The notes beneath the pieces were generated by a model. It searched no databases and was not told the DNA's origin. It worked only from the letters and a program-made list of their open reading frames with translations. 64,000 bases of DNA from Candidatus Pacearchaeota archaeon (lineage in GTDB: Archaea > Nanobdellota > Nanobdellia > UBA10117 > JABICX01): positions 78,885 to 142,884 of the forward strand of contig JAFCGM010000001.1 in NCBI GenBank assembly GCA_017608025.1, given 5' to 3'. Below are positions 4,775-49,035 of the stretch, in pieces; the first letter of the stretch is position 1, and each line of letters starts with the position of its first letter. The position numbers and the translations under genes were made by a program.

Positions 4775-4846
4775 CCTTTCTTTTAGAAAAAGAAAGCTGA
4801 TAGGCGCGAATTTATACAAAGGGTTCGCTTCTACGCAAAAGAAAAC
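4775..4846. repeat. Copy of the modular intergenic element: cctttcttttagaaaaagaaag + taggcgcgaatttatacaaagggttcgcttct + acgcaaaagaaaac
   Basis: Same GC-rich core ggcgcgaa ... ttcgcttct as the copies at 42251 and 48952. Located in the divergent region between pelota and the 4961 operon. Confidence 0.55.
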
Positions 4847-4930
4847 CATTTTAAATCCACTTAAAAAGAAAACTTGAATTGCGAGAGATTTAACAACCCT
4901 TTTTTTGCTTCCGTGCTATGTTCCAAAATG

Positions 4931-4938
4931 TATATAAA
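4931..4938 (+). promoter_or_regulatory. TATA box tatataaa, 23 bp upstream of the ATG at 4961 (leaderless transcript likely)
   Basis: Archaeal TATA-like octamer at the expected distance for a leaderless mRNA. Confidence 0.3.
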
Positions 4939-4960
4939 CAATTAAATAATAAATATATGT

Positions 4961-6157
4961 ATGCTATTGAATAAGAAAGCTAATGCTAATGCTATTATTC
5001 TTTTTACAATTCTCTTAATTGTCACTGTGATTATAATAACAGTTTTTTCGCCGACAGATTATCGAAGGGCTTTGCTAAATGAGTCTTATTCAAATGCAAA
5101 TGATTACGGCAATGTTGTTCTTTTTGAGGCAGCAGATGTTGTTATAAATGAGACAGACCTTGAAGAGGGAACTGAAAGCATTTACCTTCACGATGCAGAG
5201 CTTGACTATGCTGCGCATCGAAAAGAGGAGCAGATTTCAGGAAGCTTTGAAATAAGCAATTCCTTTATTGAAGACAATTCTGCCAAGTTTTACTTGAATG
5301 TGGATGACTCTTTCCAAGGAATGTACTTTACTTTTTATGTTATTTCAAAAGAGGGTAATGGCAAAATAAACATACTCTTAAATGGCCAAAGCATATACAC
5401 AGCATCTCCTGATGAAGGTGAGAAAGTTAATGTTTATGTTCCTAAAAACGCCCTTAAGAAAGGAGACAATGAAATAGTTATTCGAGCAACATATCCTCTG
5501 AACATTTTCAAAGAAAATTCCTTTTCAATTGTTGATTTAAGAGCTTTTTTAACAGAGAGAAATGAAGAGCAGAGAGTTGAGCACACGTTTATTGTTGAAG
5601 ATGCTTCAGAAATAAGAGAGCCTGCCCTTTATGCTTATGTTACAAAAATGCCTTATTCAATTGCAAACAGCAAAATAAAAATTACAATAAATGAGGTAGA
5701 GGTTTTTGAAGGAGTTCCAGCAACAATAAATGATTATGAAACTCCTCAGGTTTTTTACCTTCCTTTGGAGGAAATTTATTTGAAAGACGGAGTTAATGAA
5801 ATCATTTGGGAAGTTGACCTTGGAGGAGCATATTCTGTTGATTTTGTGAAAATTGAATATGAAACTTTGGAGGAGCCAGATGAAGAGGAAGAAAGTGTTT
5901 TTCGGTTTAATATTGATTCTGATGCTTACAAGAAAGTTCGGAGCAAAAGATATTCCTGTGTTTTGACTTTTGAGTCAGATGACATAAACAAGATGTTTGA
6001 ATACAATATAAATGGAAACAAATCTTCTGCTGCAGTTTCATCTTCTGAAATTTCCTTTGATGTTTGTGATTCTCTTAGAAAAGGTCTTAATTCATTGAAA
6101 GTGTCTTCAGGAGAAGACCTGCTTTTCAGCAGAATCAAATTAGAAATCAAAAGGTAA
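4961..6157 (+). CDS. N-terminally membrane-anchored extracellular protein with three G-NEI beta-rich repeats, function unknown
   Basis: Single N-terminal TM segment (ILFTILLIVTVIIITVF). Repeats around KKGDNEIVIRATYP, KDGVNEIIWEVDLG and RKGLNSLKVSS. First gene of a 4-gene same-strand cluster with a 6-bp spacer to the next gene. Confidence 0.4.
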   Translation: MLLNKKANANAIILFTILLIVTVIIITVFSPTDYRRALLNESYSNANDYGNVVLFEAADVVINETDLEEGTESIYLHDAELDYAAHRKEEQISGSFEISNSFIEDNSAKFYLNVDDSFQGMYFTFYVISKEGNGKINILLNGQSIYTASPDEGEKVNVYVPKNALKKGDNEIVIRATYPLNIFKENSFSIVDLRAFLTERNEEQRVEHTFIVEDASEIREPALYAYVTKMPYSIANSKIKITINEVEVFEGVPATINDYETPQVFYLPLEEIYLKDGVNEIIWEVDLGGAYSVDFVKIEYETLEEPDEEEESVFRFNIDSDAYKKVRSKRYSCVLTFESDDINKMFEYNINGNKSSAAVSSSEISFDVCDSLRKGLNSLKVSSGEDLLFSRIKLEIKR

Positions 6158-6162
6158 TTTTT

Positions 6163-8841
6163 ATGGCGAACTGGAGTAATGCTCTTAAAAAACTTGGTAA
6201 TAAAGCAAAGAAAATTAAGCCTAGCAAAATTAAGGAAGCTTCTGGCAAGGGCGTCAAAGCAGTTAAGGGCAAAGCTAAAAATATTGACTGGAAAAAGCTC
6301 CAAAGACAAGCAAAGGAACAAGCAAAGCAAATTGCAAAGGAACAAGGAAAGGAATTTGTAAAAAGTCAGGTTAAGGGTAAAACAGGCATTGATGTAGATG
6401 CTGTTCAGCAAGGAAACATTAGGTCATCTGCAGAAGGTGTTTTTCAGAAATTCAAAGAAAAAAGAGCCAGTTCTGAAGGAGATGATATTCATCAAATTCC
6501 TGGTTATAATCCATCCGCTCAGGAAGTTGTTGCCCCATCTGCGCAGCAACAAGGGATTCAGAGTGGAATTCCACAGCAGTTTTTGGGAAAATTTGGAAGC
6601 AGGAATAAAGGAAAGGCACCATGGATTGTTGTTTTAATTGCCCTTGCGATTGTTCTTGGCGGATTTTTGCTGATGTTTTCCCCTTTTGATTCAGAGTATT
6701 CAGTTCTGGTTATTCTTGTTGGAGGCGGGGCTCTTTTCGGAGGGCTTCTTTTTATTATTGCAACAAGAACACAGGTTTTTCAGGGAATTGGCATAGTCTT
6801 GAAAATAATTTTCATTGAAAAGCCAAAGCAGTTTTTCTTGTGGGTTAAGAAGAAGTTTGCTGTATGGCGGGAGAGGATTAGAAGAGAAAAAGAGCTTAGA
6901 AAAAAGTCCTGGGATGTTGTTCAGGCGCACAAAGATGAAATATCTCCTCTTTTAATGGAGAGTAAGGGATTTAAGGAGCAAGTAAAGGCAGTAAAGATTT
7001 TTGCTGGCATTGTAATTATTCCAATATTATCGTGCGTATATGCTCTGTACTTTTTTTTCTGGAAAGGCAGGAAAATCAAAAAGCTAATTAAAAAAGAGGA
7101 AAAAGAGCATGAAAAAGAGAGAAAGGCTGAAAAAAAAGCAGAGAAAGACAAACCAGAAGGGTTTTACTCTGGCGGAGCTGGAAGTGGCGGAGGTGCTACT
7201 GGAAAAATTCTTTTAGTTGTTGGAATAATTATTCTTATTCTCGGCGGAACTGCTGGATTCTGGTTTGGATATTACAAGAACACTCCACAAGGGCAGAAGA
7301 TTTCTGAGCAATATCTTTCATTTGGAACAAGTACTTATTCTGCTGAAAGAGGGAGCAGAGGTTTCTTCAATTCAGTTTTTCAGACAATAAAATTTGCATT
7401 TTCAGGAGATGTTGAGGAAATAATGAAGTCAAGAGAAGCAGAGTCAGAATATGCGCAGTTTGAGGAAATAAAAACCACAATGGAGGAAGTAAAGCCCTAT
7501 AAAAATCCAGTTTACAAAGATAGTGATATTTCAATTTACGGATACCTTTCTGTTGAGGACGGACCAGAAGAGGGAACTGCTTTTGAGTTTGAAGTTAGGC
7601 AGCTTATGAATGTTGTAATAAGAAATTACAGGAAAAATCAAGTCTGCGATTCAACTTTGCTGAGCTCTGCAGTTTCTAGCATAGACAGTGTTCTTGATGA
7701 AAATAATCACTGCAACAGCAATCCAGAATGTAAACATTTCTGCACCGACACTTCAGACTGGAAATGCTATATTCCTGGAGGAGATCCTGCAAAGGATTCC
7801 AATGGAAATATTATTCCAAATACATTTTTGTTTAAGAACAGATATAACCAACGAGTAATTTGCAGCCACAGCGGTATACAGGATCCAAAAAAGGATTTGC
7901 AGCTTTCAAAAATAACTCTTATTTGGAAATACTGGACACAGGCAATGCTTGAAAAGAGAGTTTATGTTTTTGATTCTGATTACGCAGCACTTCACAAAAA
8001 TCCACTAAAGTCAGCAAACATCTCAAGGTCTTCTTATGAATCTTTGAGCAAGGCAGAGAAGAACATAGGTTTCGGGGCTGGAATAAGCAAGGACAGGGAT
8101 TACATGGTTACAACTCCGCTAGATGCACTGAAATACGGAATGGATTATATTGAGATTTACAACATTATCTTCACTTTGAGGAACAAGGGTCTTGGTGACA
8201 TTGTGGATTTAAAAGACATTGAGGTATGGATTCCTGATTCTGTAAATGTTGTTGAGGAAGAAGGAGATTTTGAAGTCTGCGGAGAAAAGACTGACAGAGG
8301 AATAGTATTTAAGAAATACTGCCTAAAAAAGGATGTAATAGATTCTTTTGACTCAATTGGGCCAGCGCTGTTCAGGAACTTTTATCTGCCAGTGTATGTT
8401 GAAAGCAGCTTTATAGTTGGAAATGAGTGGTTTGATAGTTTTACTTTGACATCAAAAGTTTATTATAAATACAGAGATGAGGCAATGGTTGATGATGTCA
8501 TAAAAGTTGATGTTGGAAGTTCAGTTAAATTACATAAAACTCAGAACAACACTTCCAGCGCTTCAGAAGTTGTTAGCAAAGAAGAAACTGTTTCTGAATT
8601 AGAGACAATTATTTTTGAGGGTAGGGATGAAAATCATGTCTTTGAAATCACAGATGTAAATCCTGATAAAATTATTTACAATTTTGCTGTATCGCAAGAT
8701 AATGTTATTACAAGCCAGCTAATTATGCTTGGCGAAACAAAAGAATACAACTACAAAAGCGGGCAAGGGGAAATAAAAATATTGCTGAAGCACATTGAGG
8801 GCAATGATGCGCTAGTAAACATAACTGCTACTTATTTTTAA
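6163..8841 (+). CDS. Large polytopic membrane protein with a Lys-rich histone-H1-like cytoplasmic N-tail, 4 TM segments, a Gly-rich linker and a ~530-aa Cys-rich extracellular domain; function unknown
   Basis: N-terminus KKLGNKAKKIKPSKIKEASGKGVKAVKGKAKN; TM helices at ~150-200 and ~280-300; GGAGSGGGATG linker; ectodomain with several Cys (CDSTLL, HCNSNPECKHFCTDTSDWKC). Confidence 0.4.
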   Translation: MANWSNALKKLGNKAKKIKPSKIKEASGKGVKAVKGKAKNIDWKKLQRQAKEQAKQIAKEQGKEFVKSQVKGKTGIDVDAVQQGNIRSSAEGVFQKFKEKRASSEGDDIHQIPGYNPSAQEVVAPSAQQQGIQSGIPQQFLGKFGSRNKGKAPWIVVLIALAIVLGGFLLMFSPFDSEYSVLVILVGGGALFGGLLFIIATRTQVFQGIGIVLKIIFIEKPKQFFLWVKKKFAVWRERIRREKELRKKSWDVVQAHKDEISPLLMESKGFKEQVKAVKIFAGIVIIPILSCVYALYFFFWKGRKIKKLIKKEEKEHEKERKAEKKAEKDKPEGFYSGGAGSGGGATGKILLVVGIIILILGGTAGFWFGYYKNTPQGQKISEQYLSFGTSTYSAERGSRGFFNSVFQTIKFAFSGDVEEIMKSREAESEYAQFEEIKTTMEEVKPYKNPVYKDSDISIYGYLSVEDGPEEGTAFEFEVRQLMNVVIRNYRKNQVCDSTLLSSAVSSIDSVLDENNHCNSNPECKHFCTDTSDWKCYIPGGDPAKDSNGNIIPNTFLFKNRYNQRVICSHSGIQDPKKDLQLSKITLIWKYWTQAMLEKRVYVFDSDYAALHKNPLKSANISRSSYESLSKAEKNIGFGAGISKDRDYMVTTPLDALKYGMDYIEIYNIIFTLRNKGLGDIVDLKDIEVWIPDSVNVVEEEGDFEVCGEKTDRGIVFKKYCLKKDVIDSFDSIGPALFRNFYLPVYVESSFIVGNEWFDSFTLTSKVYYKYRDEAMVDDVIKVDVGSSVKLHKTQNNTSSASEVVSKEETVSELETIIFEGRDENHVFEITDVNPDKIIYNFAVSQDNVITSQLIMLGETKEYNYKSGQGEIKILLKHIEGNDALVNITATYF

Positions 8842-8905
8842 TTTAGAACAACCTTTAAAAATAAGCACTGACTATTAATAAGCATAATTATCAGGGTGAA
8901 AGAAC

Positions 8906-11549: not shown

Positions 11550-11580
11550 ATCTTCACTTGGAGATAAAAGGAATTCAAAA

Positions 11581-16275: not shown

Positions 16276-17547
16276 TTACTTTCCATTTCTTCGCCGTTTC
16301 CGTTTAGGATATGATAATGGATTTCTAATGCCTTTGCACAGTTCATCAGGGACGCATACACCAATGTCTTTGTAATACTGCTCAAGACTGCAGTTTGGAG
16401 GCGGAGAGGTTTTAGTTTGAGCCTTGTGCCAGTTTATCTGGCTTTGTATGTATCCTGTTTTAAGCGCTTCAGCATTTCTTGAATTCCATTCAGTAATTTT
16501 AGCTTCAATTTCCGGCCAGGTCCACTTTGCCTTTTGAAGGAAATTAAGCAATATAAACAAGGCGCGCTTTTTTCCATCAGCAAGGCCTTTGAGAATGTTC
16601 TTTATGCAGGGAGGGAAGAATTCTTCTGGAACTCGGTCCTTAAACTCAACAAATTTTCGGTCAGTCGGTACTGAAACTTTCTCGCTTTTCTTTTTTCTAA
16701 ATCTTAGGTCTTTTGCTTCTGTTATTATGAGGCTCATTTCTGTTCCAGAATAGTTTCCTGGAGTCATGAAGTTTTCATTAACTTTTGTTATGTTTTCCGG
16801 TTTTGCCTGTTCTTTTTTGAAATTTTTCAAGTCCTTTGAATTAATTACAACTGATGCAAGGCCAGATTTTTCATGCAGAGAATATGGAGCGCGAATTAAG
16901 TGGCGAGGAGATGCTAGTTGAATGTCAAGGCCGAGCAATTTCGGGACATCAGTTATGTCTTGTTTTGAATATAATTCTCTTTTTTGATTGTGTTTTTTAA
17001 GGAAATCTTTCAAATCAAAATTGATTTCTCTTAATTTTCTTTCAAAAATATTTTTGCTTTCTTTTATTATATAATACATAAGAGCATCAGAAAGTTCTGG
17101 AAACTCTTTTGCTGCTGATTCTGGAAAAGCTTCAAAAGGAACGCAAATGTGCCAACCTTTATTTCCTGAAAATTTTATTTGCGCAATTACACCATATTCT
17201 TTAAGGACTTCAAGAACAGATTCTGCTGCAAGAGTTGAAATTTTAAAGTCTGGGCAGTCAATGTCAATTATAAAATCCCATCCAATTCTTAAATTGTTCA
17301 TTTCCTGAGGAGTGATTTCAGGTGAGAGTTTCATAGCGTCCTGCCATCTTTCTTGGGAAATGTGAAAAGATGTTGCACCTTCTTTTGCAAAGGAAGATAT
17401 GTCTGAGGGAAACTGGATTATTTGCGGTCTTTTGCTGTAATGGCCCCCCTGAAATTGAACAGCTACTTCTCTGTCTTGCGAAACTTTTGCTATAAATGCT
17501 TTGATTTCTGATTTTGAATAATATTTAATTGCTTCTGACTGTCGCAT
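16276..17547 (-). CDS. priS: Archaeo-eukaryotic DNA primase catalytic subunit PriS with a C-terminal Cys-containing helical extension (fused PriS-PriL-CTD-like)
   Basis: Catalytic motifs WDFIIDIDCPDF (DhD) and KFSGNKGWHICVP (SGxRGxH). 423 aa, about 80 aa longer than stand-alone PriS, with 4 Cys in the tail (PPCIKN, NCSLEQ, GVCVPDELC). Confidence 0.6.
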   Translation of the reverse strand: MRQSEAIKYYSKSEIKAFIAKVSQDREVAVQFQGGHYSKRPQIIQFPSDISSFAKEGATSFHISQERWQDAMKLSPEITPQEMNNLRIGWDFIIDIDCPDFKISTLAAESVLEVLKEYGVIAQIKFSGNKGWHICVPFEAFPESAAKEFPELSDALMYYIIKESKNIFERKLREINFDLKDFLKKHNQKRELYSKQDITDVPKLLGLDIQLASPRHLIRAPYSLHEKSGLASVVINSKDLKNFKKEQAKPENITKVNENFMTPGNYSGTEMSLIITEAKDLRFRKKKSEKVSVPTDRKFVEFKDRVPEEFFPPCIKNILKGLADGKKRALFILLNFLQKAKWTWPEIEAKITEWNSRNAEALKTGYIQSQINWHKAQTKTSPPPNCSLEQYYKDIGVCVPDELCKGIRNPLSYPKRKRRRNGK

Positions 17548-18006
17548 GAAGAAACAATTCTTGTTAAATTTTATATAGTTTTGTAAGATTAAGGGATGTA
17601 TAAAATAGGAGCCAATTGGATGTTTGGATTTTTTAGATTTTGCACTTTATGCAATTCATAAAATTGTTGAAGACAACTGAATTCAAGTAGTATAATTAGT
17701 TTAAATTGTCTAGTTTATTTACCTGATTCTGGAGGACTGAATAAAGAAAATTAGGAAATAGAAATGCTTTTTTAATGAAATTTTTTATATATTTATATTT
17801 ATTATTTAGGTATGGAAAAATTATACGATTCTACAAAAGAGCTGTATTCTTTATTGCCAGAAAAAACAGAAAAAGACAGTCTGAAGTTGTTCTTGAGGTT
17901 TTATTAGATGCCTGTAAAAATTAATTAATTTTGTGCGTGCTATACTTTAATAAGTTTAGAAACCTTTTTAAACAACACAACGAACTATCTTTTACAATGA
18001 CAAACG

Positions 18007-18129
18007 GTGATTACCCCACAGCCCTTTTAAAAAAAGCGCTATTTCATAGGCACGAACTATGTTCGTTTCTGGCGGAAAAATCACTGACACGATAAAAATG
18101 GAAACTGGTGATTACCCCCATCAAGGCTA
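18007..18129. repeat. Modular element (18019..18117) flanked by direct repeats ggtgattacccc (18007..18018 and 18118..18129)
   Basis: The insert cagcccttttaaaaaaagcgctatttcataggcacgaactatgttcgtttctggcggaaaaatc combines the cccttttNaaaaagcg module and the ggcRcgaac-loop-gttcgtttct hairpin seen at 48985. Confidence 0.55.
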
Positions 18130-18201
18130 GAATTTATTTAACTAGCAGGAGGTATTTTCACTGTTTTGAGTCTTTTTTTAATTTTAGACATAGAAATTAA
18201 T

Positions 18202-22541: not shown

Positions 22542-22679
22542 AAAGGCAGAGCGAGCCCGGAGGGATTCGAACCCACGATCTACAGCTTCCTTCAACCTGT
22601 CGCAGAAGTTTTTTTCCGCGAACGCTTTTCTTTTTAGAGAAAAGGGCTCTTAGAAGGCTGTCGCCCTATCCAGACTAGG
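22542..22679 (-). tRNA. tRNA-Arg (anticodon TCT) interrupted by a ~63-nt intron at the canonical 37/38 position (intron approx 22578..22640)
   Basis: Manual fold of the reverse complement. Acceptor GGGCCCG/CGGGCTC; D arm GCCT-AGTCTGGATA-GGGC; anticodon stem ACAGC ... GCTGT with loop CTTCTA|intron|A; T arm GTGGG-TTCGAAT-CCCTC (one T-T mismatch). Exon CTTC pairs with the intron 3' end GAAG, giving a BHB-like central helix. Confidence 0.7.
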
Positions 22680-22839
22680 CTACGGGCCCAGAAATAAGAA
22701 CTTTGACTAATTTATAAAAGTTTTCAATATTTTTTCCAACAAAAATTTAGGAATAAAGCATATTTAATTGTTTAACTCTAGTAGCAAAATATTTAAAAAC
22801 ATCATTTTTGAGTAACAACATAACACACTTGGAGAATTA

Positions 22840-25137
22840 ATGATGAAAAAAATACTTTTATTAACTATACTAGCAGTAACTTTACTTGTCAGTTTTTCAG
22901 CTGTGAATGCAGCAGTTGTTATAAATGAATTTGAGCCGAATCCAGATGATGGATGTCTTGATTGTGCTGAGTGGGTTGAGATAAGAAGAACAACTTCAAG
23001 TGACCCAACATCTTTTGTTTTGGATGCTGGCGGACAAAATACAAGCTTTTCTTTTAATTCTGAAGGCTATTTAGTTGTGACGGGCAACTTGTCTGTTTTT
23101 TCAACAATGTATCCAAATGCTTCTGGAACAATTATTGAAGGGAATATAAGCTTAAATAATGACAAAGATACAATAATAATATACAATTCTTCAAATAATG
23201 CTGTTTTGGATAATGTAACATATGGTGATTTTTCATCAAAAGAAGGACAATCTTTAGGATTATATTATGATAATCTGAATGACCATTACTATTCATATGC
23301 AAACCCAACACCAACACAACAAAACCCTGATGTATTACCTCCAGGTAAACCAACTAACATCAATTCAGAAGTAGGTTTGTCCTCTATTAAATGGACCTGG
23401 ACAAACCCTTCTGATGAAACAGATGGCTCTGGATTCAAGCATGTTGAAGTCTACTTGAATGGCGTATTTCAGGAAAACTCCACTTTAGGAGAATTTACTG
23501 CAACAGGACTTACAAGAGATACAATTTACACTATAAAATTAATTGCTGTTGATAATGCAGGGAACAAGGCTGGTGAAGTTACAAGCCAGACAAAAACTCT
23601 TGCACAAGGAGTTTACATTAAATCAGTTGATTTGAGCAGAGAAGTTGATTCAGAAAGGCAGACTGTTGTTGAGACTTCAATAATAAACAATACTGCGCTT
23701 GAAGATTATTCTGCGCTTTCTTATGAGATTTCAAACTTGAAATGGGAAGGGAAAGATTCTTATTCATTTGAAAGTCCTGAGTTCATATCAATAAGGCAAT
23801 CACCAATAAGCCTTGCAAGTGGCTCTTCAGCAACTCTTGTTTTTGATGTTACAATTCCTTCAAGAAGTGAGGTTGAAGGATATGGTTATTATAAGGCAAC
23901 ATATAGAGTTCTTGAAGGCACAACAGAACTTGCCACAGAGTCATTCAACTTGAGGCTTTTGCCAGAAGATTATGATAATGACTTAGAGATTTCAGACATT
24001 GACTTAGATGATGATGAGCTTTTCCCTGGAGATGAGACAACTCTTGAAATTGAAGTTGATAATAACTTTGATGATGACATTGATGATGTTGAAGTTATTG
24101 TGCTAAATGAGAATCTTGATATTGATGAATCTTTTGACATTGGAAGCATTGATGAGGGAGATGATGCAACAGTATCAGCTGATTTACAAATTCCTTATGA
24201 TTCTGAAGAAGGAGATTATACTCTTTTAATTTTGGTTACTGGGGAAGACCCAGATGGAAATGATATCTCAACTTATGATTTAATTGATTTGAGTGTTGAG
24301 AAAGATAGCCATGATTTGGTCATTTCTGAAATAGATGTTTCAGATGAGGAAATAAGCTGCGGGTCAATACTTTATGTTGATGTGGAAGTTACAAACATTG
24401 GAACAAGTGATGAAGATGACCTTGTTATAAGGCTTAAAAACAGTGAGCTTAACTATGAGGAAATTGAAACTCTTGATGAGCTTGAGGAAAATGAGGACGA
24501 GACATTCACTTTTGAAGTAAGGCTTCCTGTCGACATTGACTCTGGAGCTTATATTTTTAATGCTGAGATTGAATATGATGACGATGAGGATCAGGACAAT
24601 GACAATCATTTGAGAAGTTCTGTAGGAGTGACAATTAACTGCGGGGAAAGTAACGCAAGAGGAGAAACTGGCGAAGCAACGCTTTCCGGAGACATGGAAA
24701 AGACAATAACTCAAGGAACAAATGCAGTGTTTTCATTTGAGCTTGAGAATATTGGTGATAAAGATGCAGAGTATGAGTTGAAAGTTTCTGGATATTCTGG
24801 ATGGGCTTCTGAAGTTGTAACTGAACCAGAAGGAGTTTTCATAATCTCGCCTGGTGAGACAGTTCCAGTTAAAATATATGTTTATCCAGAATCAGACGCA
24901 GCTGGAAGCGCAAGCTTGTTTTTGAAAGTTTACTCAAATGATGAAGTTGTTATTTCAGAAACAATTTCTCTGAACATTGTTTCTTTAAGAGAACGAGCAG
25001 AAACTGGTGGAGAAATTGACTATTCAACAATTTTCCTTGTTGGCGCAATTGTTGTCGGAATTGCTGCCCTAGCAGGAATTTATATATTTGCAAACAAAAA
25101 TTCATTGCTTAATGGCAGGAAAAAGAGGGAAAAATAG
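22840..25137 (+). CDS. Secreted cell-surface protein with a fibronectin type III domain, acidic Asp/Glu-rich repeats, CARDB-like domains and a C-terminal TM anchor
   Basis: Signal peptide; FN3 signature SSIKWTWTNPSDETDGSGFKHVEVYLNG...TIYTIKLIAVDNAGN; repeats ending V.V.N.G; C-terminal IFLVGAIVVGIAALAGIYIF followed by KKREK. Confidence 0.5.
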   Translation: MMKKILLLTILAVTLLVSFSAVNAAVVINEFEPNPDDGCLDCAEWVEIRRTTSSDPTSFVLDAGGQNTSFSFNSEGYLVVTGNLSVFSTMYPNASGTIIEGNISLNNDKDTIIIYNSSNNAVLDNVTYGDFSSKEGQSLGLYYDNLNDHYYSYANPTPTQQNPDVLPPGKPTNINSEVGLSSIKWTWTNPSDETDGSGFKHVEVYLNGVFQENSTLGEFTATGLTRDTIYTIKLIAVDNAGNKAGEVTSQTKTLAQGVYIKSVDLSREVDSERQTVVETSIINNTALEDYSALSYEISNLKWEGKDSYSFESPEFISIRQSPISLASGSSATLVFDVTIPSRSEVEGYGYYKATYRVLEGTTELATESFNLRLLPEDYDNDLEISDIDLDDDELFPGDETTLEIEVDNNFDDDIDDVEVIVLNENLDIDESFDIGSIDEGDDATVSADLQIPYDSEEGDYTLLILVTGEDPDGNDISTYDLIDLSVEKDSHDLVISEIDVSDEEISCGSILYVDVEVTNIGTSDEDDLVIRLKNSELNYEEIETLDELEENEDETFTFEVRLPVDIDSGAYIFNAEIEYDDDEDQDNDNHLRSSVGVTINCGESNARGETGEATLSGDMEKTITQGTNAVFSFELENIGDKDAEYELKVSGYSGWASEVVTEPEGVFIISPGETVPVKIYVYPESDAAGSASLFLKVYSNDEVVISETISLNIVSLRERAETGGEIDYSTIFLVGAIVVGIAALAGIYIFANKNSLLNGRKKREK

Positions 25138-25303
25138 TGAAAAAATTATGTTCACTTGAGCCCCTTTTAGAAAAAGCGGCTGCGGAAAACACAGCAGGCA
25201 AGCAAAAAATGATGCCTGCAAGCCCCGTTTGGAAAAAGCGGCTAAGACTGCGTCTAAGGCGGCTACGCCTTCTGCGGAAAAGTGAAAAAATAATGTTCAC
25301 TTG
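25136..25303. repeat. Two copies of the cccttttNgaaaaagcggct module (25159..25280) flanked by the 23-bp direct repeat agtgaaaaaat(t/a)atgttcacttg (25136..25158 and 25281..25303)
   Basis: Direct reading. The first repeat copy starts at the stop codon of the upstream gene. Confidence 0.55.
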
Positions 25304-26982: not shown

Positions 26983-27063
26983 ATTTTTCTTTCTTTTTTT
27001 ATTTATCTTTTTCTTTTTTGAAAAAAGAAAACCAATGCTAAAAAAACTATTTAATTTTTAATA

Positions 27064-27239
27064 TCTTCTGCAAAAGAACTTTTTATTTCTTATATTATAA
27101 CTATTGAACCCTTTTAGAAAAAGCGTTCACGGAAAAACTTTTAGAAAAAGTTTCATCAAAAAAAGAATATAAGATAAGAGCTTTTCTTAGAAAGAACATC
27201 TTCTGCAAAAGAACTTTTTATTTCTTATATTATAACTAT
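27064..27239. repeat. Element (27105..27198, containing gaacccttttagaaaaagcgttcacggaaaaac) flanked by the 41-bp perfect direct repeat tcttctgcaaaagaactttttatttcttatattataactat (27064..27104 and 27199..27239)
   Basis: Direct reading. Confidence 0.6.
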
Positions 27240-30591: not shown

Positions 30592-31131
30592 ATGAAAAAA
30601 CAAGAAGTTTCTGGGGACATTGTAAGGGGAAAGGTTATTATTGAGGATGATTTTCAAAAAGCGCAGTATCTGAACAGTAGGAGTTTTTTCGGCGAAGTAA
30701 AGGGTGGCAAAAATCCAAGATTGGAATTGTCGCTTTTTGAAGCACTTTATCTTAAGGAAGACGAAAAGTTGAGTGTCAAGAAAAATTCGAAGAAGATTTC
30801 TGTTAAGGCATTTATTGAAAAAGCAGAGAAAGTTATTGATGATTTTTATTCTAAATATTGCGTTTTCAAAGATTTAAGAACTCGCGGATACATTCTTAAG
30901 ACTGCTTTGAAATTTGGAGCAGATTTTAGGGTTTATGACAAAGGAGTCAAGCCAGGAAAGAAGCACGCTCGCTGGCTGCTTTATTGCGCTGATGAAAATG
31001 AAAAAATGACCTGGAAGCAGTTTTCTGCAATGAATCGCGTTTCACACTCAACAAAAAAAGCCCTTTTGGTCGGAATTGTTGATTCTGAAGGCGATGTTAC
31101 CTATTATGAGATTAATTGGATTCGGCCTTAA
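30592..31131 (+). CDS. endA: tRNA-splicing endonuclease catalytic subunit (EndA, homotetramer type)
   Basis: N-terminal domain SFFGEVKGG...ELSLFEALYL. Catalytic C-terminus VFKDLRTRGYILKTALKFGADFRVYDKG...HARWLLY with conserved Tyr/His/Lys positions. Confidence 0.65.
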   Translation: MKKQEVSGDIVRGKVIIEDDFQKAQYLNSRSFFGEVKGGKNPRLELSLFEALYLKEDEKLSVKKNSKKISVKAFIEKAEKVIDDFYSKYCVFKDLRTRGYILKTALKFGADFRVYDKGVKPGKKHARWLLYCADENEKMTWKQFSAMNRVSHSTKKALLVGIVDSEGDVTYYEINWIRP

Positions 31132-31233
31132 TTTCTTTTAGTGGAGGTTTTCTTTTTAAGAAAAAGTCCTATGAGATTAATTGGATTCGGCCTTAATTTC
31201 TTTTAGTGGAGGTTTTCTTTTTAAGAAAAGTCT
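31107..31233. repeat. Perfect ~64-bp tandem duplication (31107..31170 and 31171..31233) of the last 8 codons plus stop of endA and 40 bp of downstream sequence
   Basis: Direct reading: atgagattaattggattcggccttaatttcttttagtggaggttttctttttaagaaaa(a)gtc occurs twice head-to-tail. Confidence 0.7.
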
Positions 31234-31246
31234 TAGTTTTGTAAAC

Positions 31247-34507: not shown

Positions 34508-34705
34508 ATGAAAAACCAAATTTCTATTGAAGATTTTTTAAGAGCAAAAGAGATTGCACAAAAACAGAAGACTTTGAAAGATGAGATGCCAGACGTTGAT
34601 AAAATTGCTGAATACATAAACAGCGAAAATTATACTCCTTTTGAAAGAAATAGAAAACTGCTTCTTCCAAAAATTAGTAGAAATTACAAATTAGATGAAT
34701 TTTAA
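34508..34705 (+). CDS. Hypothetical small protein (65 aa)
   Basis: ORF. Its last 5 codons lie within repeat copy R1. Confidence 0.25.
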   Translation: MKNQISIEDFLRAKEIAQKQKTLKDEMPDVDKIAEYINSENYTPFERNRKLLLPKISRNYKLDEF

Positions 34706-34974
34706 CTCATATAATATTTTATGGTGCAGTCTGTCTCGCCCAGACTGTGCGGCAGCGACCAAATTCTGGTTGAAGGTCACTTTTATATGAATTTTAACTC
34801 ATATAATATTTTTTGATGCTCTGAAAGTTTTGTGGTCCTCCTAGCCGAGAGACCCAGGCTGGCGACGAATGTTGGTAATGAAAAGTCGCTTAAATATACA
34901 ATTTCATTAAGATTATTCAAATTCAGTTAGATGAATTTTAACTCATATAATATTTTTTGATGCTCTGAAAGTTT
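34693..34974. repeat. Three direct copies (34693..34719 partial; 34787..34830; 34929..34974) of gatgaattttaactcatataatatttt(ttgatgctctgaaagtttt), the 3' end plus stop of gene 34927..35208. They are separated by two inserts that each carry a gcgacNaaTNtTGGTNaNgaa..gtcRc hairpin (34754..34779; 34860..34889).
   Basis: Direct reading. The third copy encodes KLSEHQKILYELKFI-stop of the minus-strand ORF. Confidence 0.6.
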
Positions 34975-35208
34975 TATGTTGAGAAGCTTTTTTGCAAACA
35001 AGACAATGTCCTCTTCATCTTTTTCAACATAGCCGTCTTTGTAGACTGTTTTTAATATTGTTTTGTATATGTCCAGGCGGTTGGCATTTTCAGGTAGCTT
35101 TGCAAGCTCTGACAGAATTTCATCTTCCTGATCTGAGATTTTCCTGTCATTGTCTTTTGCTTCCTTTTCAATTAGGTTCATTATTTCAATTACATTAGGC
35201 AGTTTCAT
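34927..35208 (-). CDS. Hypothetical small protein (93 aa)
   Basis: ORF; overlaps the start of the downstream M50-like gene by 4 bp. Confidence 0.3.
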   Translation of the reverse strand: MKLPNVIEIMNLIEKEAKDNDRKISDQEDEILSELAKLPENANRLDIYKTILKTVYKDGYVEKDEEDIVLFAKKLLNIKLSEHQKILYELKFI

Positions 35209-42175: not shown

Positions 42176-42218
42176 GTAAAAAAATAAAAAATAATTATTT
42201 AAATATTTATCTTAAATT

Positions 42219-42380
42219 AAATGTTTATAACTTCTCCGTTTTTAGGCGCAGCACTTTTTCTTAAAAAGAAAACCTGAATTAAATTCAGGCGCGAATTGAA
42301 ACAAAAGTTCGCTTCTGCACTAAAAGAAATTGTTTTTCAATAAAACTCAAATGTTTATAACTTCTCCGTTTTTAGGCGCA
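42219..42380. repeat. Element (42251..42348: gcactttttcttaaaaagaaaa-cctgaattaaattcagg-cgcgaattgaaacaaaagttcgc-ttctgcactaaaagaaa...) flanked by the 32-bp perfect direct repeat aaatgtttataacttctccgtttttaggcgca (42219..42250 and 42349..42380). The second copy is the last 10 codons plus stop of the beta-CASP gene.
   Basis: Direct reading. The outer copy even keeps a stop codon (TAA instead of TGA). Confidence 0.65.
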
Positions 42381-43752: not shown

Positions 43753-43800
43753 AATAACAATATCTTTTGCGTTTGCTTGTATTTAAAGATTTTGAGAAAG

Positions 43801-44391: not shown

Positions 44392-44392
44392 T

Positions 44393-44572: not shown

Positions 44573-44673
44573 TTTGAATACTCTTTAGTGTCCCTATTTA
44601 AATGTTTCGCTGCCTTTTTCGAAAAAAGGCAAGTTGCCAAAGAGCTTGGTTTTGGGATGAGGTAAAGCCCCAT

Positions 44674-46202: not shown

Positions 46203-46323
46203 TATTCCTTCACCGTCCTTCCACTAAAGGGACCTATAAAAGTGCTATTTTCGGAAACAAAGTTTCCTCGATAACACATAACTTCTTTTGAGTTTATCTT
46301 TTTAGATGTGTTTTTTGTGTATA

Positions 46324-47046: not shown

Positions 47047-47086
47047 TTTCTGCTTTGTAAGATATTGTTTTTCTATTTTTCTTCTT

Positions 47087-47803
47087 CTATTCTTCTATTT
47101 GTGCTGTTCCATTAGTGAGTTTGTTTACTAATGAAAACAAGTCCTGCTTTTCACCACTAACAATATCCAGCTCAAAATATACAGAACCGTCATTTTTCCA
47201 CGATTCTGAGGACAAAGAATATTTTCTTTTTACTGCACTATATGTTTTTGCAGCGTGCTCCTGAGGTATTGTGATTTTTAAATGGAGCTTCTCAAAAGAT
47301 ATTGGGAGAACTGTTTTTATTTTTTCAATAACTCTTTTGAGAATATAATCAAAGTTCTCTTCTGGATTTATGCTGATTTTAGCTTCTTCAAGCGCATTTT
47401 CTATCCTCTGAACTGGATGAGGTAGCTTTGTCTTTGGGTCAAAGCCGTTTCGATGGATATAAGCGATTATTTTTCTTTTCTTTGCTTCATTTATTTTATC
47501 TCTTTGTTCTGAAGTAAGGTTGATTTCACCTTCCTTGATAATTGTTTCTGCGACTTTTAGAGGGTTGCTTGTTTCAAAAACTTTTTCTAAATCATCTTCA
47601 GAAGCTAAATTTCCTTTTTTTGCATCAAAGAATATATGTTCTGAGCGAATAATTTCATCTATTTTCTCTTCCTTTCCCTGCCTTAAATTAAAGGCTTTTT
47701 CAACATCTTTTAAGACAACTTCAAATGTTTCTCCATGCTTTTTCAGCCGAGCAAGGTTCATATGAAGTTTTTCTTTTGGAAATATGTTTTGCTGAATATT
47801 CAT
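47087..47803 (-). CDS. sdo1: SBDS/Sdo1 ribosome maturation protein
   Basis: NLARLKKHGETFEVVL matches the SBDS N-terminal FYSH motif; conserved superoperon position. Confidence 0.7.
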   Translation of the reverse strand: MNIQQNIFPKEKLHMNLARLKKHGETFEVVLKDVEKAFNLRQGKEEKIDEIIRSEHIFFDAKKGNLASEDDLEKVFETSNPLKVAETIIKEGEINLTSEQRDKINEAKKRKIIAYIHRNGFDPKTKLPHPVQRIENALEEAKISINPEENFDYILKRVIEKIKTVLPISFEKLHLKITIPQEHAAKTYSAVKRKYSLSSESWKNDGSVYFELDIVSGEKQDLFSLVNKLTNGTAQIEE

Positions 47804-48510
47804 TTTGCCAGTTTTCTTTTAATTTCACCTTCAGAAAGAGTATTAGTTCCTGCTTTTGAGGAAGTTACTACTTCTAGTTTTTTCATGCTGAAATTCTTTG
47901 ACTGGATTCTCTTAAAAATTTTGACTCCAAGAGTTATTGCTTCCTCTTCAGTCATATTTTCTTTCCAGTCTTTCTCAAGCATTTTGTTAGCTTCATCGCT
48001 TTTTTGGCCAATTGCCTTGGCTTTGTATTCAAAGTAGCTTCCGCTTGGTTCAGTCAGGAAAATTGAAGGTTTTTTTCCTACTCCTGCGATTATGAATGAT
48101 ATTCCGAACGGCCTTGCGCCGCCGTACTGAGTGTAAGCCTGCTTAATGTCTGCAATGTATTTTACAATGCTTTCAACTTCAATATCTTCTCCGTAAGTTA
48201 CTTTGTGCTGCTGAGCACGAACTCTTGCTTTTTTAACAAGAATTCTTGCGTCGCTCATGAAACCAGACGATGCTGCAATGATGCAATCATCTATTTTGAA
48301 AACTTTGCTTACAGAATCCTGCATAAGAAGCTTGTCTGTTCTATATCTATCAGCAATAATGACAACACAGTCTTTTGCTGCGATTCCGATTACAGTTGCG
48401 CCTAGAGAAACTGCTTTTTTAGCATATTCAACTTGAAGAAGTCGTCCATCTGGACTGAACATAGTAATTGCTCGGTCATATCCCATTGCTTGGTTTGGCA
48501 TAAATTGCAT
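47800..48510 (-). CDS. psmA: Proteasome alpha subunit
   Basis: GYDRAITMFSPDGRLLQVEYAKKAV is the 20S alpha-subunit signature. Confidence 0.8.
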   Translation of the reverse strand: MQFMPNQAMGYDRAITMFSPDGRLLQVEYAKKAVSLGATVIGIAAKDCVVIIADRYRTDKLLMQDSVSKVFKIDDCIIAASSGFMSDARILVKKARVRAQQHKVTYGEDIEVESIVKYIADIKQAYTQYGGARPFGISFIIAGVGKKPSIFLTEPSGSYFEYKAKAIGQKSDEANKMLEKDWKENMTEEEAITLGVKIFKRIQSKNFSMKKLEVVTSSKAGTNTLSEGEIKRKLAK

Positions 48511-48630
48511 TTTAATTTCACTCCTTTTTTGCAGAAGCTTTTTCTAAAAGCTTCATTTTACTTTGACCTTATTTAGAAGGCCTGAAGTTTTTAATGGAAT
48601 CCCTTTCAAAAAGGTCTTCCAACCCCAAAC

Positions 48631-48942
48631 TTATTTTAATTTATTAATAACGCCCGAGGTTTTTAATGTTTCGATTTTCACTTTTTTTACTAAAGAGAGA
48701 GCAATTTTTACATGGTTAACCCATTTTGAATTTACAGCAACAACTCCTTGTTGCTTGGTTTTGTTCCATGTTTCCTTTAGGAATGTTACTCCGGCTTTCG
48801 CGTAGCCGAACTCGCCTAGAAATGACAGACATGCTTTCATGACAATGTCTGAGATTTCATTTTTGTCTCTTTTATTTTTAGATTTCACTTCAAAGAGTAT
48901 ATAATGCTTTCGTTCTTTCAAAGTCGGCAGTAATGGTTTCAT
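48631..48942 (-). CDS. RNase P protein subunit Pop5 (Rnp2)
   Basis: HYILFEV ... GVVAVNSKWVNHVKIALSL pattern and superoperon position upstream of psmA. Start moved to the internal Met (MKPLL) because the upstream codons lie in a repeat element. Confidence 0.5.
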   Translation of the reverse strand: MKPLLPTLKERKHYILFEVKSKNKRDKNEISDIVMKACLSFLGEFGYAKAGVTFLKETWNKTKQQGVVAVNSKWVNHVKIALSLVKKVKIETLKTSGVINKLK

Positions 48943-48951
48943 TGCTAATCC

Positions 48952-49035
48952 TTTTCTTTCCCGAAAGAAAGGTCTGAACAAGTTCAGGCGCGAACTCTGT
49001 TCGTTTCTAAGCCTTACCCTAAAGAAAGGGTTCTT
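48952..49035. repeat. Copy of the modular element: ccttttctttcccgaaagaaagg-tctgaacaagttcagg-cgcgaactctgttcg-tttctaagccttaccctaaagaaaggg
   Basis: Same arrangement as 42251..42348, with a compensatory base-pair change in hairpin 1 (ctgaaT..Attcag versus ctgaaC..Gttcag). Confidence 0.55.

What the first reader, a model, noticed from the sequence alone, without database searches (positions are those of the whole stretch)
4775..49035. Conserved two-hairpin GC-rich core (aggcgcgaa-loop-ttcgYttct) in an AT-rich genome, with compensatory changes
Copies at 4801..4846, 18046..18075, 42270..42320 and 48975..49012, plus a variant at 160..188, share ggcRcgaa ... ttcgYttct, often preceded by a second hairpin (cctgaattaaattcagg versus tctgaacaagttcagg). 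The stems keep their pairing while the loops differ. This suggests a structured RNA or a protein-binding DNA element rather than simple repeats. The copies sit in 5' and 3' untranslated positions of housekeeping genes (pelota, the primase/tRNA-His region, the beta-CASP RNase, pop5).
Basis: seen in the sequence. Interest (0 to 1): 0.65.

Follow-up and report, generated by a model that had tools for sequence, protein, structure and literature searches.

The report
Tiny hairpin insertion repeats, DPANN-like archaeon
A 30-41-base GC-rich double hairpin sits in six or seven spacer regions of this small AT-rich archaeal genome, always on the same DNA strand and absent from the matching sites of related genomes, so it looks like a miniature mobile palindromic repeat rather than a conserved RNA gene.

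Summary
The motif AGGCRCRAA-loop-TTYGYTTCT occurs 5 times, against 0.0075 expected. A covariance model adds a sixth copy at 50425-50459. An architectural variant lies at 25244-25273. All seven are intergenic and all are on the + strand, whatever the direction of neighbouring genes.

Each copy follows a CT and ends in TTCT. Each has a variable, fully Watson-Crick hairpin H1 (CT-X-loop-X'-AG) abutting the conserved hairpin H2.

Four copies align against orthologous or paralogous sites that lack exactly this 30-41-nt block. No copy was found in about 92 kb from four related assemblies. A narrow form of the motif gave only chance hits in the genome, metagenome and viral collections. Rfam has no match.

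The copies lie at the foot of T/A-tract hairpins, inside mosaic intergenic blocks. Several of these blocks are bounded by 17-60-nt direct duplications of the local sequence.

Best reading (confidence about 0.45): a lineage-specific, REP-like hairpin insertion element that probably moves as single-stranded DNA. No enzyme was identified, and the variability of H1 is unexplained. A conserved structured RNA or an L7Ae site is not supported. The H2 covariation itself is thin (2 pairs).

The parts
153..188 (+). Copy c5 (36 nt): AAGCATAGCTT-AGGCGCAAA-CTAAGTT-TTTGCTTCT, inserted after CT at 151-152.
   Evidence: 38.9 bits. The paralogous carrier at 34842-34902 lacks exactly these 36 nt (A4).
4799..4832 (+). 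Copy c1 (34 nt): GAT-AGGCGCGAA-TTTATACAAAGGG-TTCGCTTCT, after CT at 4797-4798. H1 is minimal (CT gat AG).
   Evidence: 35.9 bits. It lies inside about 135 nt that three relatives lack between the divergent pelota and 4961 genes.
18041..18070 (+). Copy c2 (30 nt): ATTTCAT-AGGCACGAA-CTATG-TTCGTTTCT, after CT at 18039-18040, inside an M1 carrier.
   Evidence: 37.4 bits. A5 aligns it with empty M1 units. The whole 101-nt block is absent at this site in L146 and L144.
25244..25273 (+). Variant c6 (30 nt): AAGACTGCGTCTA-AGGCG-GCTA-CGCCTTCT, after CT at 25242-25243. Same architecture, shorter H2.
   Evidence: A5 shows a clean 30-nt block absent from the neighbouring M1 unit 25160-25190 and from the M1 of L146. 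Only 9.8 bits with model R1, so membership rests on architecture alone.
42276..42316 (+). Copy c3 (41 nt): GAATTAAATTC-AGGCGCGAA-TTGAAACAAAAG-TTCGCTTCT, after CT at 42274-42275, inside an M2 carrier.
   Evidence: 35.4 bits. A single 41-nt gap against the L001 ortholog and against the paralog 31130-31172 rc.
48976..49008 (+). Copy c4 (33 nt): GAACAAGTTC-AGGCGCGAA-CTCTG-TTCGTTTCT, after CT at 48974-48975.
   Evidence: 36.3 bits. The L002 ortholog (4800-4840 rc) has the flanking hairpins but lacks one block of 33-38 nt; the boundary is ambiguous.
50425..50459 (+). Copy c7 (35 nt): AGGGCTAAAGCCCA-AGGCGGAAC-TAT-GTTCCTTCT, after CT at 50423-50424.
   Evidence: (18.4 bits, E 0.015-0.033). It lies in a 138-nt spacer between L7Ae and S28e. 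In L002 these two genes are 1 nt apart.
42252..42331 (+). M2 carrier around c3: T/A-tract hairpin CACTTTTTCTTAAAAAGAAAACCT, then the insertion point, then GCACTAAAAGAAATT.
   Evidence: hairpins H0, H1 and H2 fold in series.
31130..31237 (-). Two empty M2 carriers (31130-31172 and 31195-31237) directly after the stop codon of the tRNA-splicing endonuclease gene.
25160..25190 (+). Empty M1 carrier GCCCCTTTTAGAAAAAGCGGCT then GCGGAAAAC. The same 31-mer is present in the distant relatives L146 and L147.
34842..34902 (+). Empty M3 carrier (GAGAGACCCAGGCT then GGCGACGAATGTTGGTAATGAAAAGTCGCTT), a paralog of the c5 flanks.
106..256 (+). Block A: 23-nt direct repeats (106-128 and 234-256) flanking 105 nt that contain c5. 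The right repeat is the 3' end of an AsnC-like minus-strand gene.
17996..18118 (+). Block B: 22-nt direct repeats (82% identical) flanking 79 nt that contain c2. The block interrupts a sequence conserved upstream of tRNA-His.
25136..25303 (+). Block C: 23-nt direct repeats flanking 122 nt, made up of an empty M1, the M4 hairpin, and an M1 carrying c6.
42214..42380 (+). Block G: 37-nt direct repeats (32 nt identical) flanking 93 nt that contain c3. The right repeat is the 3' end of the beta-CASP gene.
   Evidence: In L002 the intergenic spacer here is only 20 nt.

Best explanation
The two-hairpin core is a lineage-specific, REP-like miniature insertion element of 30-41 nt that works at the DNA level.

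Its constant part is hairpin H2. H2 has a distal stem GCGAA/TTCGC and a partly mismatched base AGGC/TTCT containing a fixed C.T mismatch and a G.T pair.

Its left part, H1, is a sequence-free palindrome. The outermost H1 pair is the CT at the left junction with the AG that abuts H2.

Inferred mechanism:
1. A structure-specific nuclease or transposase, of the kind known from HUH/Y1 enzymes of IS200/IS605 and REP-RAYT systems, recognises folded H2 on single-stranded DNA.
2. It cuts after a CT that is held next to the AG(G) at the foot of H2. At the right end this is the CT of TTCT. At the left end, or in a new target, it is a CT lying 1-3 nt past the foot of an existing T/A-tract hairpin.
3. The block is joined in at that point.

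This would explain the CT at both junctions, the single orientation on the strand expected to be exposed as lagging-strand template, and the nesting inside hairpin-rich, terminator-like modules.

Once inserted, the copies probably add hairpins to transcript ends, as bacterial REPs do. That is not what defines them.

Shown here: the repeat family, its anatomy, the filled and empty sites, the strand bias, and absence from the sampled DNA of relatives. Inferred: mobility as single-stranded DNA, the guide role of AG(G), and the type of enzyme.
For: (1) The family is real: 5 exact copies against 0.0075 expected, plus c7 from the covariance model. The next hit scores no more than 11.5 bits.

(2) The block is discrete. 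Single-block gaps of 36, 30, 41 and 33-38 nt separate filled sites from orthologous sites (L001, L002) and paralogous sites (34842-34902, 25160-25190, 31130-31172; also L146).

(3) All seven copies follow CT and end in TTCT.

(4) No copy was found in the related loci. The covariance model covered 78 kb (L001, L002, L140-L143). L144, L146 and L147, a further 19 kb, were only read or scanned for the carrier modules. The narrow pattern that requires TTCAGG before H2 gave only chance hits in genome, metagenome and viral contigs.

(5) The arms and flanks of H2 are conserved while the loops vary. Two loop subfamilies are visible: c1 and c3 have long loops with TTCGCTTCT; c2, c4 and c7 have CTNTG-type loops (c7 read with the closing C and G of its stem), with TTCGTTTCT in c2 and c4. 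Bacterial REP families behave in the same way (PMC3333891).

(6) Seven of 7 copies are on the + strand although neighbouring genes run both ways. GC skew at fourfold-degenerate sites, expressed on the + strand, is positive for + genes (0.06) and for - genes (0.30) along the whole window. This gives the + strand leading-strand composition, which makes it the lagging-strand template.

(7) In 5 of 7 copies the target CT lies 1-3 nt past the 3' foot of a T/A-tract hairpin.

(8) H1 is present far more often than chance allows (P about 1e-8) and is entirely Watson-Crick.

(9) The E. coli REP transposase needs a stem mismatch and a 5' tag, and cuts at C|T dinucleotides near the hairpin (PMC3333891). 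This is a mechanistic precedent, not evidence of homology.
Against: - No transposase, HUH, integrase or Cas1 domain was found in the 40 ORFs scanned, which include most of the large ones. The rest of the genome could not be reached.
- H1 differs almost completely between copies and does not follow the H2 subfamilies. c3 and c4 share H1 but differ in H2 type. Simple copy-and-paste from a master copy does not predict this.
- The direction of change (gain here, not loss elsewhere) rests on parsimony. A hairpin flanked by CT repeats could also be lost by slipped mispairing.
- Seven copies on one strand is only P about 1/64. The skew argument borrows a bacterial rule.
- c6 fails the H2 model, and part of its H2 repeats the adjacent carrier sequence.
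- Fold energies of the regions are only modestly better than shuffles (z -1.0 to -2.2).
Confidence: 0.45

Rival explanations
1. The hairpins are made on the spot by replication template switching, or by error-prone repair at hairpin-forming terminator modules. They are not transposed. Similar sequences recur because the carriers (M1, M2) are themselves repeated, and because switching can copy from another hairpin.
For: - H1 is a near-perfect palindrome with a 1-4-nt centre and no G.T pairs.
- In c2-c5 the 3' arm of H1 can also pair with the 5' arm or loop of H2 in the same copy, an X-X'-X arrangement. Within-copy matches beat between-copy matches (permutation p about 0.05).
- The H2 of c6 repeats the adjacent carrier sequence AAAGCGGCT.
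- The same genome is unusually rich in short-range direct duplications: 11 repeat pairs of at least 16 nt, at 8 places, against 0-1 in shuffles. One is a fresh 65-nt tandem duplication.
- Template switching is known to create hairpins with apparent compensatory changes (PMC8794818).
Against: The same 18 nt of H2 arms and flanks occur at five unlinked loci, in three different carrier types (M1, M2, M3). The junctions are identical (CT ... TTCT). Purely local copying cannot produce that. It would need ectopic templating, which amounts to a copy mechanism anyway.
Confidence: 0.2
2. The element is a functional structured RNA. It could be a cis-acting UTR hairpin (3'-end stabiliser, terminator or attenuator) or a small RNA bound by a protein such as L7Ae.
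For: - Pairing is kept with some covariation.
- A G.U at the base of H2 is conserved on the + strand. The + strand RNA folds better than the - strand RNA in c1, c3, c5 and c6.
- Copies lie next to T-tracts at gene ends. Copies c3, c4, c5 and c7 are downstream of, or between, minus-strand genes.
- The H1/H3/H2 alternatives resemble an attenuator layout.
Against: - The element is missing from the orthologous sites of close relatives, where the flanking motifs are conserved.
- Orientation is fixed to the chromosome, not to the host transcript.
- There is no Rfam hit.
- No K-turn or C/D signature is shared by the copies.
- H2 is followed by TTCT and then a G/C-rich tetramer, not by a U-run.
- c1 and c2 lie between divergent genes.
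Confidence: 0.15
3. The copies are duplex-DNA binding sites for a chromosomal or regulatory protein, such as operator or architecture sites.
For: Conserved inverted half-sites (GCGCGAA and TTCGC), intergenic location, and one orientation.
Against: The spacing between half-sites varies from 3 to 13 nt. This is incompatible with a dimer on duplex DNA. There is also the insertion-like presence or absence and no conservation in relatives.
Confidence: 0.05

Closest known systems
Bacterial REP/BIME elements and their RAYT (TnpA_REP) transposases
   Same: - Imperfect palindromes of 30-40 nt, GC-rich for the genome, extragenic, multicopy and species-specific.
- Conserved stem and flanking tag with an obligatory stem mismatch, and variable loops.
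- Embedded in mosaics with other short motifs, often at gene 3' ends.
- The E. coli enzyme cuts at C|T near the hairpin (PMC3333891, PMC3733652).
   Different: - No GTAG or CGTC tag; the flanks here are AGGC and TTCT.
- The copies are singletons in one orientation, not inverted pairs (BIME, REPIN).
- A second, sequence-free hairpin (H1) is part of the unit.
- The host is a DPANN-like archaeon.
- No RAYT gene was seen in the 64 kb available.
IS200/IS605-family ends and their non-autonomous derivatives (PATEs)
   Same: A subterminal hairpin a few nucleotides from the cleavage site. Insertion next to a short specific sequence without a classical duplication. Strand-specific orientation tied to the lagging-strand template. 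A short sequence at the hairpin foot can pair with the cleavage site.
   Different: The element is ten times smaller. Only one conserved hairpin is present, and the left hairpin differs between copies. No tnpA or tnpB was found in the window.
MITEs such as Correia elements, Rickettsia palindromic elements and archaeal MITEs
   Same: Small non-autonomous insertions with filled and empty sites, intergenic, lineage-specific.
   Different: No terminal inverted repeats. The junction repeat is only CT. At 30-41 nt the element is well below typical MITE sizes.
Integron attC sites
   Same: Folded single-strand recombination sites with conserved ends and a variable centre. One orientation, downstream of genes.
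   Different: The R''/R' core sites (RYYYAAC and GTTRRRY) are not present. There is no cassette array and no integrase. The element is much shorter.
Intrinsic-terminator-like hairpins and archaeal oligo-T terminators
   Same: The copies sit beside T/A-tract palindromes (M1, M2) that directly follow stop codons, which is a terminator-like position.
   Different: The core is not oriented with the upstream gene, is not followed by a T-run, and also occurs between divergent genes.

Membership tests
REP / REPIN-RAYT | Imperfect palindrome of 20-40 nt, extragenic, many copies per genome | tested here: met
   Seven intergenic copies of 30-41 nt in 64 kb. H2 is fully paired apart from a fixed C.T mismatch.
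REP / REPIN-RAYT | Conserved unpaired GTAG or CGTC tetranucleotide at one foot of the hairpin | tested here: not met
   The flanks are AGGC (5') and TTCT (3'). Neither tag defined in PMC3733652 and PMC3333891 is present.
REP / REPIN-RAYT | Frequent arrangement as inverted pairs (BIME, REPIN) | tested here: not met
   All copies are single and on the + strand. There are no inverted partners.
REP / REPIN-RAYT | A cognate Y1 (RAYT) gene flanked by the repeats | tested here: inconclusive
   No Y1, HUH or transposase domain in the 40 window ORFs scanned. The other 93 kb of the source contig and the rest of the genome were unreachable.
IS200/IS605-derived element (PATE) | Similar subterminal hairpins at both ends | tested here: not met
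   Only H2 is conserved. H1 differs in sequence in every copy.
IS200/IS605-derived element (PATE) | Insertion 3' of a short fixed sequence; orientation tied to the lagging-strand template | tested here: inconclusive
   CT precedes all 7 copies, and all 7 are on the strand with leading-strand composition. The sample is small and the direction of replication is inferred, not known.
MITE | Terminal inverted repeats and a fixed-length target-site duplication | tested here: not met
   The termini are not inverted repeats (sequences). Only CT recurs at both junctions.
Any Rfam family, including C/D-box sRNAs, riboswitches and known archaeal sRNAs | Match to a curated covariance model | tested here: not met
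   No hit on any copy at the gathering threshold or at E<=5.
K-turn / L7Ae-binding motif | Three-nucleotide bulge followed by tandem sheared G.A/A.G pairs, or C (RUGAUGA) and D (CUGA) boxes | tested here: not met
   By inspection of the aligned copies. CUGA occurs in only 3 of 7 H1 arms. No copy has RUGAUGA. The internal loop of H2 is C.U plus G.U.
Integron attC | R''/L'' and L'/R' core sites (RYYYAAC ... GTTRRRY) with extrahelical bases | tested here: not met
   By inspection. The ends are CT-X and TTCT, and no GTTRRRY is present.
Archaeal bulge-helix-bulge intron | Two 3-nt bulges separated by a 4-bp helix formed between the intron ends and the flanking exons | tested here: not met
   By inspection of the c3 and c4 junctions on both strands. 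The start of the insert cannot pair with the downstream flank.

The most novel reading that the evidence does not exclude
This may be a previously undescribed class of ultra-small (30-41 nt) single-hairpin mobile element in DPANN-type archaea. The element would carry its own two- or three-base guide, the AG(G) at the foot of H2. The guide would select CT sites at the foot of existing terminator hairpins on the lagging-strand template, stacking hairpins into mosaic intergenic arrays.

The same machinery, or the breaks that these hairpins provoke, may also cause the unusual 17-60-nt direct duplications. These duplications repeatedly copy gene 3' ends right up to the stop codon.
Probability: 0.2. 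Interest if true: 0.75.

Novelty: new variant of a known kind. Interest (0 to 1): 0.45.

Why it matters
REP-type palindromic repeats and their domesticated transposases are described mainly from bacteria. Three full-text searches here turned up no REP-like family in DPANN archaea.

DPANN genomes are very compact. In the relative L002, neighbouring genes are 1-20 nt apart at sites where this genome has 130-250-nt mosaics. If the element is mobile, it is among the smallest insertion units known. It would also show how a reduced genome acquires spacer DNA, hairpins and perhaps terminators.

The precise filled and empty pairs give a directly testable substrate (CT, H1, H2, TTCT) for finding the responsible enzyme.

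There is also a practical point. These blocks interrupt conserved non-coding sequence and duplicate gene ends, which can mislead gene callers and assemblers working on such MAGs.

Tried and rejected
- **More copies from the same genome.** The window's own proteins are not retrievable. The single genome-collection scan and the single metagenome scan, using TTCAGGCGCGAA-N3-20-TTCGYTTCT, gave only chance hits in GC-rich bacterial DNA. Because that pattern requires TTCAGG, it would miss copies with a different H1.
- **Viral contigs.** The loose pattern is swamped by chance matches. The strict patterns gave 0 and 3 hits. The only AT-rich hit (L151) lies inside a coding region, as does the reading frame around it, and is a chance match.
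- **Rfam**, at the gathering threshold and at E<=5: nothing on the elements.
- **K-turn, C/D box, BHB intron and attC**: rejected on inspection, as set out in the membership tests.
- **Diversity-generating retroelement.** Considered because of the duplicated gene 3' ends. The repeats are too short (17-60 nt) and nearly identical, they occur at many loci, and no reverse transcriptase was found.
- **CRISPR-like mini-array** for the triple repeat at 34691-34975. The "repeats" are local gene ends, the "spacers" are 55-95 nt, and there are no cas genes.
- **Simple tandem duplication** as the origin of the repeat-flanked blocks. This fits only 31105-31229. For block G, the sequence after the second repeat is unrelated to the sequence between the repeats.
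- **Terminal inverted repeats** on the inserted blocks: none.
- **Transposase or integrase in the window**: none by Pfam in the 40 ORFs scanned.
- **Raw GC skew**: dominated by gene orientation. Only the fourfold-site analysis was informative.
- **Thermodynamic z-scores**: weak, because shuffled T/A-tract sequence also folds.

Full report
**What is there**

A regular-expression scan of both strands finds AGGCRCRAA-N3-25-TTYGYTTCT exactly five times, all on the + strand. The left half occurs nowhere else. Markov-1 simulations of the window give 0.0075 such matches.

A covariance model of H2 built from the five copies (A1, R1) recovers them at 35-39 bits. It adds one more copy, c7 at 50437-50462 (18.4 bits, E 0.015-0.033). 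With filters off, nothing else exceeds 11.5 bits.

A seventh unit, c6 at 25244-25273, has the same layout but a shorter H2 (AAGGCG-gcta-CGCCTT). It is not significant with R1, so I treat it as an architectural variant.

A generic scan for AGGC-hairpin-TTCT gives six hits on the + strand. On the - strand it gives only three weak, AT-rich hits inside coding sequence.

**Anatomy**

Every copy reads CT | X-loop-X'-AG | GCRCGAA-loop-TTCGY | TTCT.

- *H2.* The five distal pairs and the basal A-T, G-C and G.T pairs hold in all five canonical copies, and there is a fixed C.T mismatch. Two pairs change on both sides and one becomes G.T. With five sequences the shuffle control is only suggestive (32 of 500).
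- *H2 loops.* They fall into two types. c1 and c3 have 12-13-nt loops and TTCGCTTCT. c2, c4 and c7 have CTNTG-type loops (for c7, counting the closing C and G of its stem), with TTCGTTTCT in c2 and c4.
- *H1.* It differs in sequence in every copy: CT gat AG; CTAT ttc ATAG; CCTGAATT a AATTCAGG; CTGAAC aa GTTCAG; CTAAGC ata GCTTAG; CTaAGAC tgc GTCTaAG; CTaGGGC taaa GCCCaAG. It is a hairpin of at least 4 bp in six of seven copies, against 3.5% of AG positions generally (P about 1e-8). All its pairs are Watson-Crick.
- *Possible third pairing.* There is a weak signal (permutation p about 0.05) that the 3' arm of H1 can also pair with the 5' arm or loop of H2 in the same copy.

**Host and context**

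The window is a 34% GC archaeal segment. It encodes pelota, a fused PriS/PriL primase, HisRS, LeuRS, exosome and proteasome subunits, L7Ae/S28e/L24e, Pop5, a short beta-CASP RNase and the tRNA-splicing endonuclease. The nearest named homologues are Woesearchaeota, Nanoarchaeia and Aenigmarchaeota MAGs.

All copies are intergenic:
- c1 and c2 lie between divergent genes.
- c3 lies between convergent genes.
- c4, c5 and c7 lie downstream of, or between, minus-strand genes.
- c6 lies between plus-strand genes.

**Filled and empty sites**

I fetched syntenic contigs of four related assemblies:
- GCA_964558255.1: L001 and L140. Protein identity to the window is about 75-80%.
- GCA_964435825.1: L002, L141 and L144. 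Protein identity to the window is about 59-75%.
- Metagenome assembly ERZ23498390: L143 and L146, about 61-63% identity.
- Metagenome assembly ERZ23498388: L147.

L142 is a second contig that carries the same pelota protein as L141.

The comparisons, copy by copy:
- *c3.* Downstream of beta-CASP, L001 reads AAAAAGAAAACCTGCACTAAAAGAAG. The window has the same string with 41 nt inserted after CCT. Two paralogous units at 31130-31237 are also empty.
- *c4.* Upstream of pop5, L002 keeps both flanking purine/pyrimidine hairpins but lacks one block of 33-38 nt. The boundary is ambiguous.
- *c5.* Its flanks have a paralog at 34842-34902 that lacks exactly the 36 nt (A4).
- *c6.* It is a 30-nt block missing from the adjacent M1 unit (25160-25190) and from the identical M1 of L146 (A5).
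- *c7.* It sits in a 138-nt spacer between L7Ae and S28e, which are 1 nt apart in L002.
- *c1.* It sits in about 135 nt that three relatives lack.
- *c2.* It sits in a 101-nt block that interrupts a sequence conserved upstream of tRNA-His in L146 and L144.

No copy was found in the relatives. The covariance model was run over 78 kb of them. L144, L146 and L147 were read or scanned only for the carrier modules.

**Distribution elsewhere**

The source genome itself is not retrievable. A narrow form of the motif, with TTCAGG required, gives only chance hits in about 186,000 species genomes and in the JGI metagenomes. Nothing credible turned up in IMG/VR. This does not exclude copies elsewhere that have a different H1.

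**Strand**

Seven of seven copies on one strand is not explained by transcription, because host genes run both ways.

At fourfold-degenerate sites, GC skew expressed on the + strand is +0.06 for plus-strand genes and +0.30 for minus-strand genes. The orientation-independent component is positive in the three window segments that hold genes on both strands. The last 15 kb has only minus-strand genes, so the components cannot be separated there. By the rule established for bacteria and some archaea (my own knowledge, not tested here), the + strand then has leading-strand composition. That would make it the parental strand exposed as lagging-strand template.

**Carriers and mosaics**

The insertion point is always just past a CT. 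In five copies that CT lies 1-3 nt beyond the 3' foot of a T/A-tract hairpin.

These hairpins belong to recurrent modules:
- M1: GCCCCTTTTAGAAAAAGCGGCT then GCGGAAAAC
- M2: CTTTTTCTTAAAAAGAAAACCT then SCACTAAAAGAAATT
- M3: GAGAGAYCCASGCT then RGCGAC...GTCGCTT
- M4: CAGGCA-N12-13-TGCCTG

M1 and M2 resemble bidirectional oligo-T terminators, and several lie directly after stop codons. M1 is identical in the distant relatives L146 and L147. M3 and M4 were seen only in the window.

Several blocks that contain these modules are bounded by direct repeats of the local sequence, 17-60 nt long. There are 11 repeat pairs of at least 16 nt at 8 places, against 0-1 in shuffles. Relatives have far fewer.

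Several repeats are gene 3' ends that stop at or within a nucleotide or two of the stop codon. Examples are beta-CASP, an AsnC-like gene, and the overlapping ends of the convergent genes 34508-34705 and 34927-35208, which are present three times. The duplication keeps both genes intact.

I could not establish how these duplications arise. One locus (31105-31229) is a plain 65-nt tandem duplication. The others are not.

**Mechanism**

The data fit a REP-like element that is recognised as a folded single strand. The supporting features are:
- conserved stem, flanks and mismatch;
- free loops;
- a sequence-free helper hairpin;
- junctions at CT;
- one strand only;
- targets at hairpin feet.

The closest precedents are the Y1/HUH systems. 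The E. coli TnpA_REP needs the 5' tag and the stem mismatch of REP and cuts at C|T dinucleotides around it (PMC3333891). IS200/IS605 elements use a short sequence at the hairpin foot to read the cleavage site, and they insert into the lagging-strand template (my own knowledge).

I propose that AG(G) at the H2 foot plays that role for both CT junctions. This part is inference. No enzyme was found in the window.

Three problems remain. The diversity of H1 is unexplained, and its independence from the H2 subfamilies is the main difficulty. The direction of change is argued only from parsimony.

**Rivals**

- *Local template switching or hairpin-provoked repair.* This explains the perfect palindromes, the X-X'-X pattern and the many duplications (PMC8794818 gives the precedent). 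It does not explain an identical 18-nt H2 at five unlinked loci in three carrier types.
- *A functional RNA.* This is disfavoured by absence from orthologous sites, transcript-independent orientation, the lack of any Rfam or K-turn signature, and the lack of a following U-run. Secondary use as 3'-end hairpins remains possible.
- *A duplex binding site.* This is excluded by the variable half-site spacing.

**Verdict**

It is wrong in its preferred reading of a conserved RNA or an L7Ae site.

The element is not a member of the GTAG or CGTC REP superfamilies, the IS200/IS605 ends, MITEs or attC. It works most like a REP. I rate it a new variant of a known kind, of moderate interest. Its value would rise sharply if the whole-genome census and read mapping confirm strand-switching at the origin and active insertion.

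Noticed in passing
window 106-256, 17996-18118, 25136-25303, 27063-27239, 34691-34975, 42214-42380; L001 6356-6485: Intergenic blocks of 55-122 nt are bounded by direct duplications of the local sequence, 17-49 nt long and often 100% identical. Several duplications are gene 3' ends that stop at the stop codon, and in two cases the stop codon differs between the two copies (TGA/TAA, TAG/TGA). There are 11 repeat pairs of at least 16 nt in the window, against 0-1 in shuffles, and far fewer in relatives. The mechanism is unknown.
   Followed up: partly
window 31105-31229: A perfect 60-nt direct repeat with 65-nt spacing. It is a fresh tandem duplication of the last 25 nt of the tRNA-splicing endonuclease gene plus its terminator-like M2 module.
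   Followed up: partly
window 34508-34705 (+) and 34927-35208 (-): Two small convergent genes whose 3' ends overlap in the relative L001. Here the overlap region is present three times, so each gene keeps an intact end, and two different hairpin-rich inserts lie between the copies.
   Followed up: partly
window 17960-18170 (interrupted); L146 6190-6300; L144 235-320: A sequence of about 75 nt, ATGACAAACGGTGATTNCCCCCAT...CTAG...GGAGGTATTTTCAC, is conserved upstream of tRNA-His in three species and can form a long hairpin. It has no Rfam match. It is probably an undescribed small RNA or a tRNA-His leader element. In the window it carries the 101-nt insertion that contains c2.
   Followed up: partly
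window 25160-25190; L146 6440-6480 (-); L147 95-130 (-): The 31-nt M1 module (GCCCCTTTT.AGAAAAAGCGGCTGCGGAAAA) is virtually identical at non-orthologous sites in genomes whose HisRS proteins are only 63% identical. It is either a conserved signal, perhaps a terminator, or itself a mobile module.
   Followed up: partly
window 196-222 and 34866-34900; window 25195-25218 and 50471-50495: Two further repeated hairpin modules with conserved sequence: M3 (GCGAC-RAATGTTGGTWATGAAAM-GTCGC, with a conserved loop) and M4 (CAGGCA-N12-13-TGCCTG). Neither was seen in the sampled DNA of relatives.
   Followed up: partly
window 22552-22689 (-): Rfam finds a tRNA spread over 138 nt, which implies an intron of about 65 nt. 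ARAGORN does not call it.
   Followed up: no
window 16276-17547 (-): A single 423-aa ORF carries both primase small-subunit and large-subunit domains, that is, a fused PriS-PriL.
   Followed up: no
window, whole length: GC skew at fourfold-degenerate sites is positive on the + strand for genes of both orientations, with a replication-like component of about +0.18. This suggests the whole window lies in one replichore.
   Followed up: yes
L001 1-282: At least three tandem copies of an 89-nt unit containing a CCCTTTTTAAAAAAGG hairpin, at the end of the contig upstream of the proteasome alpha gene. This is where the assembly broke.
   Followed up: no
window 4861-4895: CTTAAAAAGAAAACTTGAATTGCGAGAG resembles the M2 carrier plus the start of c3, with most of the core missing. 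It may be a decayed eighth copy next to c1.
   Followed up: no
window 55410-58013 (-): The anaerobic ribonucleotide reductase NrdD carries an N-terminal NrdR-type zinc ribbon and two ATP-cone domains in the same ORF. The L002 ortholog has the same arrangement.
   Followed up: no
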